A stretch of DNA of 64,000 nucleotides from an uncultured Chloroflexia bacterium (lineage in GTDB: Bacteria > Chloroflexota > Anaerolineae > JAAYZQ01). Location: the NCBI GenBank assembly GCA_963700285.1, contig CAVOXA010000006.1, forward strand, positions 1 to 64,000, read 5' to 3'. Each line of letters starts with the position of its first letter. The first letter of the stretch is position 1. The notes under the pieces were generated by a model. The model did not search any database, was not told where the DNA came from, and saw nothing but the letters and a program-made list of their open reading frames with translations. Shown here in pieces: positions 10,532-16,885 of the stretch. The translations under genes were made by a program, and so were the position numbers.

Positions 10532-10560
10532 AGTATATCATGGCGCAGATGAGCTGTCAA
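10532..10560 (-). promoter_or_regulatory. sigma70-type promoter of MalT-like copy 2 (part of the conserved end module)
   Basis: TTGACA-17 bp-TATACT. Confidence 0.75.
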
Positions 10561-10608
10561 AGGGGATGCCACATCCACAGGAAACAAATCTCGCGTAGGT
10601 GTTAGCGT

Positions 10609-10670
10609 AAGCCGTGCAGTCAGCGGGAACCCAGACGTATTGGGCAGTGCCTCCCATTTTGAGAAGATGC
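10609..10670 (+). repeat. Conserved junction motif J1 preceding a yyaL 3' fragment (putative attachment site)
   Basis: AAGCCGTGCAGTCAGCGGGAACCCAGACGTATTGGGCAGTGC-ct-CCCATTTTGAGAAG; homologous to 13987, 16822 and 28126. Confidence 0.7.
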
Positions 10671-11897
10671 TTTATGACAATTCCCACTTGGCCCGCGTGT
10701 ACCTACACGCCTGGCAGGTCACCGGCGACGAGTTCTTCCGGACCATTACTGAGGAAATCCTCGATTATGTCATTCGGGAAATGACCGATCCTGCCGGAGG
10801 CTTCTATTCCACGCAAGATGCCGACAGCGAGGGCGAAGAGGGCAAGTTTTTCGTCTGGACGCCGGATGAGATCCGGGAGGTTCTGGGCAGATGAGGCAGA
10901 GGATTTCATGGCTGCCTACGGTGTGACACGCCACGGCAACTTTGAGGGCAAGAACATCCTCGAGTTTGTGGGTGACATGAACCAACGAGCTACCCTGACC
11001 GAGGCCCGCCGCGCGCTGTTCGAGGCGCGAGAAAAGCGCGTGCGCCCAGGACGCGACGAGAAGGTCCTGACGTCGTGGAACGGTCTTATGCTGGCCGCTT
11101 TTGCCGAGGCGGCGCGGGCTCTGGATCGCGATGACTACTGCCTGGTCGCTGAGCGCAACGCTGATTTCCTCCTCCGTGAGCTGAGACAGGGGAATGGTCG
11201 TCTGCTGCGGACGTGGAAACGTCGTCCTGAGCATGCCGAAGGAGCAGGCGAGGCCAAGCTCAACGGCTACCTGGAGGACTATAGCTACCTCATCGAGGGC
11301 CTGCTGGAGCTGTACCAGACCACCTTCGATCCCCGATGGTTTTTGGCAGCCCAAGAGCTGGCCGAGACCATGATCGCTCACTTCCAATCACCTGAAGGTG
11401 CGTTTTACGATACCAGCGATGACCACGAGACCCTGATCACCCGGCCTCGCGATCTGCAGGACAACGCCACGCCTTCAGGCAATGCGATGGCCGTCACCGT
11501 CCTGCTGAAAATGGCCGGCTTCACCAATGATCTACGTTATGTCGATGTAGCCCACCAGGCACTGGCTCAGATGCAGCCGATGATGAGCCAGTACCCGTTG
11601 GGCTTTGGCCAGTGGCTCCAGGCGCTCAGCTATGCCCTTTCCAAGCCGCGAGAGATCGCCATTGTCGGTGATCCTGGCTCTGCTGAGACACAGGCTCTTC
11701 TGAGCGTCGTGCGCGATGGCTACCTTCCCTTTCAGGTGATAGCCTTGGCAAAGCCCAATACCGACTCCCTGGCTGTCCCGCTCCTGCAAGATCGAGGACT
11801 GGTGAACGGGCAAGCCGCAGCCTACGTGTGCCGTGATTTTACGTGTCAGGCGCCGGTAACCGAGCCGCAGGCGCTGTTGGCACAGCTACAGGGTTAG
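10653..11897 (+). pseudogene. yyaL: yyaL/DUF255 thioredoxin-domain protein, 3' half (fragment 1)
   Basis: [73 protein letters not shown]; no N-terminal thioredoxin part. Confidence 0.9.
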
Positions 11898-12021
11898 CGG
11901 CAGACGTGGCGGGCCTACCTGCATCCAACAGGCATGCTCCGTTGCGGCAGCTTGACGACTGGCCCATCGTGCATCTGTTCGGATCCAAGACCCGCCAGGT
12001 CTCTTATCAGAGGAGGTTCCT

Positions 12022-12339
12022 ATGTCGGCAAGTGATGACACGGTTATCGTCGAGAACGTCAACGTTACGGGAAAGACGTCTCGCGTGAACGCCGCCAAGT
12101 ACCACGCTATGAGACAGGCCATGCTCCAGGTTCTGCCCTGGGCACAGCCCGGTCTAACGCAGGCCGAGATCCGTGAGGCGGTGGTTCCCCACCTCTCACA
12201 GGACCTCTATCCCGGTGGCGCAACAGCAGGCTGGTGGGCCAAGACGGTCCAGCTCGACCTGGAGGCCAAAGGCCTGGTGATCCGCGAGCCGACCAAGCCC
12301 TTGCGCTGGCACCAGGAGCAGGGGCTGGACAGCGCCTGA
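12022..12339 (+). CDS. Small conserved protein (DUF6958-like)
   Basis: RBS GAGGAGG; GWWAKTVQLDLEAKG motif. Confidence 0.7.
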   Translation: MSASDDTVIVENVNVTGKTSRVNAAKYHAMRQAMLQVLPWAQPGLTQAEIREAVVPHLSQDLYPGGATAGWWAKTVQLDLEAKGLVIREPTKPLRWHQEQGLDSA

Positions 12340-12341
12340 GC

Positions 12342-12728
12342 ATGTCCCTGCATCCGCTCAACCTGGCCGTTCGTTTCGTGCTCGAGATCGCCGCCCTGGT
12401 CGCCATCGGCTACTGGGGCTTTAAGGAACACACGGGCATCCTGCAGTTTGTCCTGGGCCTCGGCCTGCCCCTCCTCGCCGCTGCCGCCTGGGGCATCTTT
12501 GCCGTGCCCGGCGACCGCACTCGCTCCGGGGACGCGCCGGTGCCCGTGCCCGGCGCCCTGCGATTGCTCCTCGAGCTGTCCCTCTTTGCCCTGGCCAGCT
12601 GGGCTTTGTGCGACGCCGGCAGCCCCGTGCTGGCCCTGATCCTGGCCAGCGTTGTCGTCGTGCACTATGCCCTATCCTACGATCGCATCGGCCGGCTGCT
12701 CCGCTACCGTGGCCCCGGAACGGCCTGA
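12342..12728 (+). CDS. YrdB/DUF2568-like membrane protein
   Basis: NLAVRFVLEIAAL...WGIFAVPGD; 4 hydrophobic segments. Confidence 0.75.
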   Translation: MSLHPLNLAVRFVLEIAALVAIGYWGFKEHTGILQFVLGLGLPLLAAAAWGIFAVPGDRTRSGDAPVPVPGALRLLLELSLFALASWALCDAGSPVLALILASVVVVHYALSYDRIGRLLRYRGPGTA

Positions 12729-12801
12729 GACCACCATCGAAAGGAATCCTATGTCTGCCGAATTTCCCACCACCGGCATGAGATGACCCACATCCTGGTC
12801 G

Positions 12802-13338
12802 TTGGCGGAGGCGATGCTCGAGCGCTTTGCAGATCTGCAGGGGACACTCTACGATACCAGCGACGACCACGAGACGCTTATCACTCGCCCTCGTGACCTA
12901 CAGGACAACGCCACGCCATCGGGCAACGCCATGGCAGTCACCGCCCTGCTCAAGCTGGCCGGCTTCACCAACGATTTGCGCTATGTCGACATTGCGCACC
13001 AGGCACTTGCGCAAATTCAGCCGATGATGGCTCAGTACCCGCTGGGCTTTGGCCAATGGCTTCAGGCGCTGGCGTACGCCCTTTCGAAGCCGCGCGAGAT
13101 TGCCATTGTCGGTGATCCCGACTCTCCTGACACCCAAGCCTTGCTGAATGTCGTTCGCGATGGCTACCGGCCCTTCCAGGTTGTGGCGTTGGGGATACCT
13201 ACCACACTGCTGCCCACTGTCCCGCTCCTACAGGAACGGGGACTAGTGAACGGCAAGCCGGCAGCCTATGTCTGTCGCAATTTCGCCTGCCAGACGCCGG
13301 TGACGGAGACGGAGGGGCTTCGGGCGCAATTGGAGTAA
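12802..13338 (+). pseudogene. yyaL: yyaL C-terminal fragment 2
   Basis: [29 protein letters not shown]...AYVCRNFACQTP; fused to an unrelated truncated gene start at about 12751. Confidence 0.9.
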
Positions 13339-13360
13339 GACTCGCCCGCTTTCCATAAAT

Positions 13361-13399
13361 CAAGAACCCGAAGGCCTGCTGTGACCCTTCGGGTTCTTG
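13361..13399. terminator. Hairpin between convergent yyaL fragment and hicA (probable terminator)
   Basis: CAAGAACCCGAAGG ... CCTTCGGGTTCTTG. Confidence 0.65.
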
Positions 13400-15737: not shown

Positions 15738-15754
15738 TGTGCACCCGCCACTGC

Positions 15755-15854
15755 GCCTAACGGAAAAGTTCAGCCGCCGGGAAAGCCCGCTGAGACTTTC
15801 ATCCCCGTCAGGATTTGGCCGGGCTTTCCCGGTCGGCTGCAACGGGGGTTAGCC
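15755..15854 (-). repeat. Integron attC site (100 bp)
   Basis: Minus strand GGCTAAC...TTGCAGCCGACCGGGAAAGCCC / GGGCTTTCCCGGCGGCTGAA...GTTAGGC; imperfect hairpin with extrahelical bases. Confidence 0.9.
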
Positions 15855-15906
15855 GGGGTGACTTTTCAGAGACTATCCAGTCTGCACGATCTTCATGTGC
15901 TCGACG

Positions 15907-16125
15907 TCAGTGCGAAACGCTAGTCTTGGCGAGTTCAAGCAGACCTCGCAAAGCCTGATTGACAGCTTGAGCATTGGGAAATGCTTCAGCAATATCAGGG
16001 TCGAGCACTACAATATTGGAGGACTCTCTCACCCGTGCTGCATACTTTCCGCGCACCATCGGGCCAAAGTCCTCACGACGATACTCGGGACGAAGTTCAT
16101 CGGAAACCACGTCAACCTTCTTCAT
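15907..16125 (-). CDS. BrnA-like antitoxin
   Basis: DELRPEY...RGKYA...[24 protein letters not shown]; overlaps the brnT 3' end. Confidence 0.75.
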
Positions 16126-16384
16126 AGAGCTTCCTTTCTGACCGGGTAGCCGGTCTGGCGCTGATGATCCGAGTCCGATCACTCCGTTCGGTATGAGCGA
16201 TGACAAGCAAACGCCCAGCACTGGAGACGCCAAACGTGACAAGCCGTTCCTCACTCACAGAATGATCTGGATCATCACCAGTCAGGGATAGATCATCCAA
16301 AAACACTGTAGCGGCTTCGTCAAAAGACACCCCGTGCTTGCGCAGGTTTGCTCTTGCCTTTTTGGGATCCCACTCAAACTGCAT
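16112..16384 (-). CDS. brnT: BrnT-family toxin (DUF497)
   Basis: [28 protein letters not shown]...RIISARPAT. Confidence 0.9.
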
Positions 16385-16496
16385 GTTGACTCCAAGCCAG
16401 CGCACGGGATGTTTGGTTCATCCACGCCAACTCCTATCCAACCACCCACCGAGCCGCCACGCCCACTGACCGGGCAGAGACCTTCGACTTGGCTCC

Positions 16497-16530
16497 ATTA
16501 TACATCAAAGCGTGCTCGCCGACAAGCACG
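16497..16530 (-). promoter_or_regulatory. brnTA promoter with overlapping palindrome
   Basis: TTGTCG-17 bp-TATAAT; CGTGCT...AGCACG inverted repeat over the -35. Confidence 0.65.
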
Positions 16531-16717
16531 CTCTTTTCTCAACCGCCAGCCCGGCTGACAATTGAATAGACCGGACTATTTCGGCCTATCTTTCTTGGTT
16601 CCTAGACCGAATAGGTTCGGCATAACACACCCGAAAGGTTGACTTATGTCGAGTCCTGCGTATGATATGGTAGTCTTGGTGAGTGATCTGGTCACAGTGC
16701 AAGTCCGACGATGAGGT

Positions 16718-16746
16718 ATTATGCAACCAAAACCCCTTTCTGTCAA
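16718..16746 (-). promoter_or_regulatory. Strong leftward promoter facing the cassette array (Pc-like; part of the end module)
   Basis: TTGACA-17 bp-CATAAT. Confidence 0.7.
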
Positions 16747-16821
16747 GGATGATGTCGACGTCTTGGCCCAGAATCTGGCCACGAGCGCCTTTCTCTTACT
16801 CTCGCGGGCAGATGTCAACAC

Positions 16822-16885
16822 AAGCCGGGCCGTCAGCGGAAATCCAGGCGCATTGGATTGTGCACCCCACTTTGAGCGAATGCTC
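16822..16885 (+). repeat. Conserved junction motif J4
   Basis: AAGCCGGGCCGTCAGCGGAAATCCAGGCGCATTGGATTGTGC-ac-CCCACTTTGAG. Confidence 0.7.

What the first reader, a model, noticed from the sequence alone, without database searches (positions are those of the whole stretch)
10555..16870. Conserved non-coding end module with a variable 2-5 nt insert at the yyaL junction
Seen in sequence: J1 (10609), J3 (13987) and J4 (16822) align as AAGC(C)GGGCNGTCAGCNNNAANCCAGRCGYATTGGNNNGTGC-[x]-CCCAYTTTGAG, where x is CT, TGCCA and AC. J7 (28126) keeps GGGCCGTCAGC. TGGNNNGTGC+CCCAC would read W-x-V-P-H as in native YyaL, so the insert falls exactly inside the V-P codons and breaks the frame. Further left the motif no longer encodes the expected GFHRYSVD. 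J1 and J4 also match through CTCGCG back to CTGTCAA. Inference: this is an att junction with an attP arm that mimics the target. The variable bases resemble coupling sequences or an imprecise crossover footprint.
Basis: partly seen in the sequence, partly recalled or inferred. Interest (0 to 1): 0.8.

Follow-up and report, generated by a model that had tools for sequence, protein, structure and literature searches.

The report
Recombinase scars stacking half-genes in yyaL
The repeated motif is a conserved mobile-element end joined to leftover back halves of the yyaL gene, likely scars of serine-recombinase islands that insert at one spot and likely swap the back 60% of the gene between genera of sediment bacteria; the 'variable insert' is mostly a fixed two-base part of that end, not a footprint.

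Summary
The 42-bp motif at J1, J3 and J4 is real, non-coding and not eroded yyaL (36% identity to native yyaL, shuffled 35%). It recurs in four other genomes of the family and in four sediment metagenomes. J7 is a second end type. These are most likely attR sites. In relative G389 a large serine recombinase (LSR) abuts the 5' half of yyaL, and its two arms form a 9-bp inverted repeat around the GA of the F-E codons. Five LSR homologues read through that site. The 'insert' lies left of this crossover, inside the arm. It is AC in 4 of 9 copies, and no variant was listed in the metagenome contigs, so the coupling-sequence idea is not supported. CTGTCAA is the -35 box of leftward cargo promoters. 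New: intact yyaL genes in seven relatives are chimeras, four of them switching ancestry at or next to this site, and in G006 and G201 the displaced native 3' half sits downstream behind an arm. No LSR was found for the window's own end types, and the head of the array falls in an assembly gap. Verdict: new variant of LSR island accretion.

The parts
10609..10662 (+). J1: type A element arm; inferred crossover GA at 10661-10662 (attR-type site)
10655..11897 (+). Orphan 3' half of yyaL (residues 265-682), out of frame near 10890
   Evidence: the extra base is absent from relatives' contigs
10532..10560 (-).
   Evidence: second copy ending near 2921 without a junction
12799..13338 (+). 5'-truncated yyaL piece (from residue 503), no arm
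13433..13857 (-). Two small cargo ORFs, HicB/HicA-like (names recalled, not scanned)
13907..13935 (-). Sigma-70-like promoter match reading into that pair
13987..14042 (+). J3: type A arm with x = TGCCA; inferred crossover GA at 14041-14042
14035..14832 (+). Orphan 3' half (residues 265-541) with stop codons, cut off by an attC-like cassette
14833..15854 (-). GNAT gene between attC-like hairpins (15755-15854 found by script; 14833-14895 seen by eye)
16718..16746 (-). Sigma-70-like promoter match reading into the cargo left of J4
16822..16875 (+). J4: type A arm, consensus x = AC at 16864-16865; inferred crossover GA at 16874-16875
16868..17297 (+). Orphan 3' half with an internal deletion; E-R instead of E-K after the crossover
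21335..21802 (+). 5'-truncated yyaL piece (from residue 526), no arm
22616..22942 (+). 5'-truncated yyaL piece (from residue 576), no arm
28128..28184 (+). J7: type B arm; inferred crossover GA at 28183-28184
28177..28427 (+). Orphan 3' piece (residues 263-346), last unit of the stack

Best explanation
J1, J3, J4 and J7 are conserved element ends fused to orphan 3' halves of yyaL, most likely attR scars of large-serine-recombinase (LSR) islands that cross over at the GA of the F-E codons in VPHFEK, and the stack likely grows because recombination at this site joins a resident 5' half to an incoming 3' half and leaves cargo, attR and the displaced half behind.

SHOWN: conserved ends of three types; an LSR with attL at this site in G389; intact genes that change ancestry at the site; native-lineage 3' halves displaced behind arms; no recombinase in the stacks.

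INFERRED: (1) types A and B are served by LSRs as type C is (about 0.7); (2) the elements carry spare yyaL sequence, either a whole copy (seen inside a conjugative region of G389) or earlier attR + 3' half units; (3) ordinary excision between attL and the nearest inner attR removes the recombinase part, rebuilds a targetable chimeric yyaL and strands the cargo, while excision at a farther attR carries units to other genera (about 0.5). The bases called x belong to the arm.
For: 26 arm junctions in 9 genomes and 5 metagenome contigs, all at HFEK.
G389:C45: 5' half ending HFEK, foreign arm, convergent Resolvase+Recombinase+Zn-ribbon gene, at the native locus. Its arm and 4 of 4 attR arms form a 9-bp perfect inverted repeat about GA; native sites give 0-4 bp.
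5 of 265 LSR homologues end in antisense yyaL starting at F-E-K (scores 68-87; shuffled maximum 49).
At least 13 of the 120 best short homologues are 5' halves with foreign tails starting at or right after HFEK; six are 76-82% identical to 5' halves of the window's family.
Crossover bracket: CAC in 4 of 4 G389 arms versus CAT in 3 of 3 genus genes; the G294 5' half departs right after GA.
Chimerism: seven genomes form a clade in the 3' tree (99/95), and the 5' data reject that clade (AU p = 0.0002). Ancestry switches between columns 780-834 (G006), 633-810 (G011), 753-829 (G002) and near 829-834 (G092), with att at 808.
Two G006 orphans group with the kin of G006's own 5' half; another groups with the intact gene of a different genus. 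The G201 orphan is 75/68/61% identical to congeners, its intact gene's 3' half only 54/52/53%.
A spare whole yyaL follows Tad-pilus, coupling-protein and M23 genes in G389.
Against: No LSR was found for types A or B. G000, G001 and G022 gave no PF07508 or PF00239 match. Twelve LSR loci from the family had no yyaL beside them. A search with antisense tails returned one non-LSR protein.
No attL was found in any of the 23 family genomes with the one tail pattern tried. All five tail-bearing LSRs belong to the G389 clade.
Type A and B conservation runs about 55 bp, longer than the roughly 25-bp LSR half-site (recalled).
G016, G013 and G018 give breakpoints 120-700 columns right of att, and three window pieces start at other positions without arms, so other recombination also acts.
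The seven-genome group was picked by likeness to J1's 3' half, which is partly circular.
G389's contigs are unjoined, so its composite structure is inferred. The head of the window's array is unassembled.
Confidence: 0.68

Rival explanations
1. Recombinase-free circles made of arm + 3' yyaL + cargo are excised and inserted in trans by an attR x attB reaction. Each insertion regenerates an intact gene, so the stack works like an integron array.
For: It gives the same layout and the same breakpoints at att. No recombinase lies next to any A/B junction scanned. Metagenome contigs join a yyaL 3' end directly to a J4-type arm (letters between not known), and G201 has only about 80 bp between gene and arm.
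Against: Disrupting attL forms exist in the same lineage, so the ordinary route suffices. attR x attB is not a canonical LSR reaction (recalled). 3' halves do not group by arm type. No circle was seen.
Confidence: 0.17
2. Each unit is a self-contained replacement island whose attP right arm is the yyaL 3' half. It is moved by its own, now lost, tyrosine-type recombinase, which leaves variable coupling bases.
For: x differs among J1, J3 and J4. The arm is long. The type B consensus holds a short internal inverted repeat.
Against: x is AC in 4 of 9 copies, and no variant was listed in 4 runs. In G389 and G294 the crossover lies right of x. No tyrosine recombinase lies beside any junction scanned. 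The only intact recombinase found at this site is an LSR.
Confidence: 0.08
3. After rare LSR insertions, the stack was built mainly by RecA-type or homology-facilitated illegitimate recombination that used yyaL as an anchor.
For: Three armless pieces in the window start at residues 503, 526 and 576. Three genomes have breakpoints well right of att.
Against: Four genes switch ancestry at or next to att, and none in the equally conserved thioredoxin domain. Four of the window's seven pieces start at the arm.
Confidence: 0.06
4. Eroded yyaL duplicates or sequencing errors.
For: Frameshifts occur in the window's copies.
Against: Arm versus native identity equals shuffled. The same ends occur in other genomes and runs.
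Confidence: 0.01

Closest known systems
Site-specific LSR integrative elements that disrupt protein-coding genes (Durrant et al., PMC10083194; passages and supplement search seen)
   Same: LSR beside the att site, a crossover inside a conserved coding motif, gene disruption. PF03190 (DUF255, the yyaL domain) is among their targets: 7 of 1069 target clusters versus 0 of 908 background, FDR 0.065.
   Different: I could not tell whether those seven use the F-E site; six core 15-mers were not in the supplement text held. Stacks of attR plus orphan half-genes behind a rebuilt chimeric gene were not mentioned in the passages I saw.
SCC composite islands and ccr-less cassettes at rlmH (PMC13739063; passages seen)
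   Same: LSR-driven tandem stack at one gene, inner att sites, recombinase-less units, older units pushed outward.
   Different: No Ccr or rlmH here. SCC repeats only a few terminal codons (recalled), whereas here about 415 codons, 60% of the gene, are repeated and exchanged between genera.
CIME / ICE tandem accretion and cis-mobilisation (PMC5704250; passages seen)
   Same: Decayed units without integrase accumulate at one att site and can be carried along by a neighbouring active element.
   Different: CIMEs keep attL and attR.
LSR islands at the CHWC codons of yyaL with repeated 5' gene ends
   Same: Same target gene, same enzyme class, recombinase-poor stacks, spare gene parts.
   Different: A different site (F-E, residue about 267), and the mirror layout: 3' halves are repeated.

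Membership tests
Site-specific LSR integrative element (attR scar) | LSR gene (Resolvase + Recombinase + Zn ribbon) next to an att site at this locus | tested here: inconclusive
   Met for type C in G389. Not found for the window's types A/B; G000 holds only a distant relic on C15, and the array head is unassembled.
Site-specific LSR integrative element (attR scar) | Crossover at a 2-bp core inside an inverted repeat, without footprint | tested here: inconclusive
   9-bp repeat about GA and a bracket to TTTGA in G389 and G294. For A/B only the left arm is held as DNA. J3 mirrors the KWVA tail (1 of 25 arms).
Site-specific LSR integrative element (attR scar) | Matching left junction that truncates the 5' half at the same base | tested here: met
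   G389 and G294 DNA. 5' halves with foreign tails after HFEK, six of them 76-82% identical to family genes. Not present in the window itself.
Site-specific LSR integrative element (attR scar) | attP x attB recombination activity | not testable with these tools
   Needs an assay.
SCC composite island | Ccr recombinases and insertion at rlmH | tested here: not met
   The target is yyaL, and there is no LSR in the stack. It works alike but is not a member.
SCC composite island | Several att sites in tandem with recombinase-less units | tested here: met
   Four arm junctions in 18 kb of the window.
CIME | Unit lacks integrase and transfer genes | tested here: met
   Pfam scans of window and relatives' units.
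CIME | Unit retains both attL and attR | tested here: not met
   No attL and no 5' half in the window or between units.
Tn916/Tn554-type elements with coupling sequences | Variable bases at the crossover, copied from the previous target | tested here: not met
   x lies left of the bracketed crossover, is mostly AC, and no variant was listed in 4 runs.
Tn916/Tn554-type elements with coupling sequences | Tyrosine recombinase at the element end | tested here: not met
   None of G000's 7 PF00589 matches is on contig C6. There is only an N-terminal integrase relic at 27221-27379.
Integron | Intact intI and attI, with attC hairpins bounding each unit | tested here: not met
   The arms are not attC hairpins. 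attC-like sites occur only as cargo.
Tn7-like / DDE transposon end | Second end with matching repeats, target duplication, transposase | tested here: not met
   No other convincing arm copy in the genome, and no such genes at junctions.

The most novel reading that the evidence does not exclude
Arm + 3' half of yyaL + cargo is itself the mobile unit. A serine recombinase acting in trans inserts it by attR x attB, rebuilding an intact, re-targetable yyaL each time. The result would be a serine-recombinase analogue of an integron whose capture site sits mid-gene, and which shuffles the enzyme's C-terminal barrel between genera while stockpiling STAND regulators and toxin-antitoxin cargo.
Probability: 0.17. 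Interest if true: 0.78.

Novelty: new variant of a known kind. Interest (0 to 1): 0.52.

Why it matters
It defines a second LSR landing site in yyaL, in uncultured sediment Anaerolineae, with sites precise enough to assay. It also shows a side effect I did not find described in ten paper searches: insertions at a mid-gene att site leave the host an intact but chimeric gene, so 60% of a conserved protein is exchanged between genera with a breakpoint at or near that site. Trees built on yyaL are therefore unreliable in this group. The repeated repair suggests selection to keep YyaL, whose function is poorly known. The footprint idea that gave the finding its high first score does not hold.

Tried and rejected
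Searches for the type A/B recombinase led nowhere:
- Pfam scans of junction neighbours.
- G389 LSR against 23 family genomes: 4 with a match, none beside yyaL.
- The KWVA arm pattern in 23 genomes: 3 two-mismatch hits against 4 control hits. In viral contigs: 0.
- Antisense-tail profile: 1 non-LSR protein.
- 150 HMMER representatives: no new tail.

Collections:
- Viral contigs: 17 candidates, none confirmed; 6 chance pattern hits.
- Phages: no yyaL match. Plasmids: 12 records, all covering the junction.
- An exact type A pattern in genome contigs was too strict: 1 hit.
- An attL pattern over 401 genomes found only G389; it misses other first bases.

Ideas rejected:
- Tn7-like TG..CA ends: no second end and no transposase.
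- CTGTCAA as part of the end: it is a promoter -35 box.
- Arm and 3' half travelling as fixed pairs: types mix in trees.
- Homologous repair across the whole 5' half: breakpoints cluster at or right of att.
- G296, G358 and G324 second copies are paralogues or contig breaks.

Limits: no sequencing run held more than 0.21 of the stretch, so the window's own x letters are unverified.

Rows left out of counts: L022 (same sequence as a junction already held), L024 (3' part too short), and L009, L018-7212, L035, L028 and L013.
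Full report
Setting. The window is the first 64 kb of contig C6 of G000, a 7.05-Mb, 89%-complete genome. Related records are named Anaerolineae. Between 10.6 and 28.4 kb lie seven pieces of the 3' part of yyaL (DUF255). Four begin at HFEK (J1, J3, J4, J7) and three begin further in, at residues 503, 526 and 576. The first 210 bases of the four are only 76-81% alike. No 5' half of this clade is in the assembly. 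Contig C7 ends about 9 kb upstream of where congener G001 has its whole yyaL, and C6 is syntenic with G001 again at 37.5 kb. The head of the array is therefore in a gap.

Observation. The arms start at 10609, 13987 and 16822 and are 33/42, 30/41 and 30/41 identical. A two-mismatch version occurs three times in the genome, only here. Over positions -56 to -12, type A arms are 0.73 alike to each other, 0.36 to native yyaL and 0.35 when shuffled (7 arms, 30 native genes). The motif is thus real and not eroded coding sequence. J3 has GCCAGC rather than GTCAGC. CTGTCAA is the -35 box of leftward sigma-70 promoter matches, 11 of 12 at all three junctions (7 sites found, 2.2 expected). The J1 copy recurs at 2915 with no yyaL after it, so the leftward extension belongs to the cargo.

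Distribution. Arm junctions occur in 7 of 23 family genomes, in G201 and G389, and in 5 metagenome contigs, 26 in all. In a draw of 401 class genomes, 257 matched yyaL and 8 had two or more matches. Five of those eight hold orphans; three were paralogues or contig breaks. There are three end types. A (9 copies, two of them degenerate) ends TGTGCACCCCACTTT, B (13, with J7) ends GCGTACACCACTTT, and C (4, G389) ends GGACACACTTT. Arm types do not form clades in trees of the sequence that follows.

The 'insert'. Among 9 type-A-like copies x is AC four times, and CT, AT, AG, CCC and TGCCA once each. I laid contigs from 4 sediment runs on J4 (79, 65, 43 and 50 contigs). They showed substitutions at 16848, 16851 and 16858, but none and no indel at 16859-16882 at a 2% share (3 rows were not shown, and contigs unlike J4 may have been clipped). 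Two contigs laid on J3 were 3 bases shorter there. So x is mostly a fixed part of the end. J1's CT may be decay. J3's TGCCA makes its arm the exact mirror of the K-W-V-A tail seen below, the only one of 25 arms that does; that may be a true arm variant or chance.

The enzyme and the crossover. In G389 the native locus (synteny with G251 and G407) holds residues 2-270 ending HFEK, then foreign DNA and a convergent 572-aa LSR. That arm and each of the four type C arms form a 9-bp perfect inverted repeat around the GA of F-E, against 0-4 bp in 30 native genes. The His codon is CAC in 4 of 4 type C junctions but CAT in 3 of 3 genes of the genus, while the third base of Glu and the next codon vary. 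In G294 a 99%-identical 5' half departs from its twin immediately after GA. Together these bracket the crossover to TTTGA, 9 or more bases right of x. Five of 265 LSR homologues end in antisense yyaL starting at F-E-K. Among the 120 best short homologues of the 5' half, at least 13 carry foreign tails from HFEK on. Four with KWV tails and two with KSST are 76-82% identical to 5' halves of G016 or G018 in the window's family. No DNA could be fetched for these, and no LSR was found for types A or B. Their assignment to LSRs is inference.

How the stack forms. In 20 intact genes, seven (G001, G002, G006, G011, G013, G016, G018; chosen as the best hits to J1's 3' half, so partly circular) are more alike in the 3' than in the 5' half in 19 of 21 pairs, against 1 of 78 pairs among the others. 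They form a clade in the 3' tree (99/95), which the 5' data reject (AU p = 0.0002). The 3' data reject G006's 5' grouping with G008 and G012 (p = 0.0002). Informative sites switch across column 808 in G006, G011 and G002, and about 25 columns right of it in G092. G016, G013 and G018 switch 120-700 columns further right. Two orphans of G006 group with the G008/G012 3' halves (98/95 and 98/96), that is, with the kin of G006's own 5' half. A third is sister to G018's intact gene (100/99). In G201 the orphan is closer to congeners (75, 68, 61%) than the intact gene's 3' half is (54, 52, 53%). So the resident half gets displaced and a foreign half takes its place. G389 shows a source: a whole spare yyaL behind Tad-pilus, coupling-protein and M23 genes, plus four attR units, on unjoined contigs. 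The simplest route uses only canonical LSR chemistry (recalled). A composite element integrates, then excises between attL and an inner attR, leaving a rebuilt gene, cargo, attR and the old half. Excision at an outer attR carries units onward. Recombinase-free circles inserted by attR x attB would give the same layout and cannot be excluded. The armless pieces show later deletion or homologous recombination. All four window orphans are broken.

Known systems. Durrant et al. (PMC10083194; passages and supplement search) list DUF255 among LSR targets, 7 of 1069 versus 0 of 908, without a site I could read. Long supplementary files may be cut, so an F-E site could be listed unseen. SCC composite islands (PMC13739063, passages) and CIME accretion (PMC5704250, passages) are the closest working analogues, but defining features fail: no Ccr or rlmH, and no attL on the units. 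PMC5812530 gave only a reference line. Ten searches (listings only, apart from the papers named) found no paper on yyaL att sites or on stacked half-genes. Earlier AI notes of this scan describe LSR stacks at the CHWC codons of yyaL with repeated 5' ends. They are unchecked, concern another site, and came after my reading was formed.

Verdict. Observation partly confirmed. The att-junction reading is supported and the footprint reading is not. This is a new variant of LSR island accretion, with gene-half exchange as its distinctive trait. Interest 0.52.

Noticed in passing
window 14833-14895, 15755-15854, 23095-23225, 23826-23925, 24857-24912; 27221-27379: attC-like hairpins (two found by script, three seen by eye) bound small cassettes inside the stack, with an integrase N-terminal relic (PF13495). 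Integron cassettes appear to be cargo; one cuts off J3's half-gene.
   Followed up: partly
window 10532-10560, 13907-13935, 16718-16746; L007, L011, L030: Near-consensus leftward promoters lie 100-130 bp from the crossover in 5 of 9 type-A-like junctions, 1 of 4 type C and none of the type B junctions examined. They may be cargo promoters or a feature of the end.
   Followed up: partly
window 16877-16879; L014, L020, L023, L026; G389, G407: E-R instead of E-K after the crossover in 5 of 20 type A/B orphans versus 0 of 16 intact family genes. Intact genes in G389 and G201 have altered codons before the site (WGTP, WRTP). Possibly target-site escape.
   Followed up: partly
L031:10304-12019 (G389): The LSR reading frame runs through attL into antisense yyaL, so its C-terminus changes on excision.
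   Followed up: partly
L034 and L085 (G389:C71): Conjugative region with Tad-pilus genes, a coupling protein and an M23 peptidase, carrying a whole spare yyaL.
   Followed up: partly
L099 and L100 (G294): The 5' half is duplicated at 99% from the start codon to the F-E site, with different upstream DNA. This is the mirror repair design at the same site.
   Followed up: partly
window 120-2956 and 7775-10595: An 86%-identical duplication of a malT-like gene; the left copy is followed by a DDE transposase remnant (3056-3559).
   Followed up: partly
L003, L007, L010-L012, L014, L018, L020, L027, L030, L032-L034: Cargo next to junctions is rich in STAND NTPases (SARP-BTAD-AAA-TPR, nSTAND1-WD40, NB-ARC) and HepT-MNT pairs.
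   Followed up: no
G014 and G020: Neither genome of this genus matched the yyaL queries, yet G014 holds six LSR homologues.
   Followed up: no
L028:2107-5359: V-type ATPase genes lie on the element side of a type B arm.
   Followed up: no
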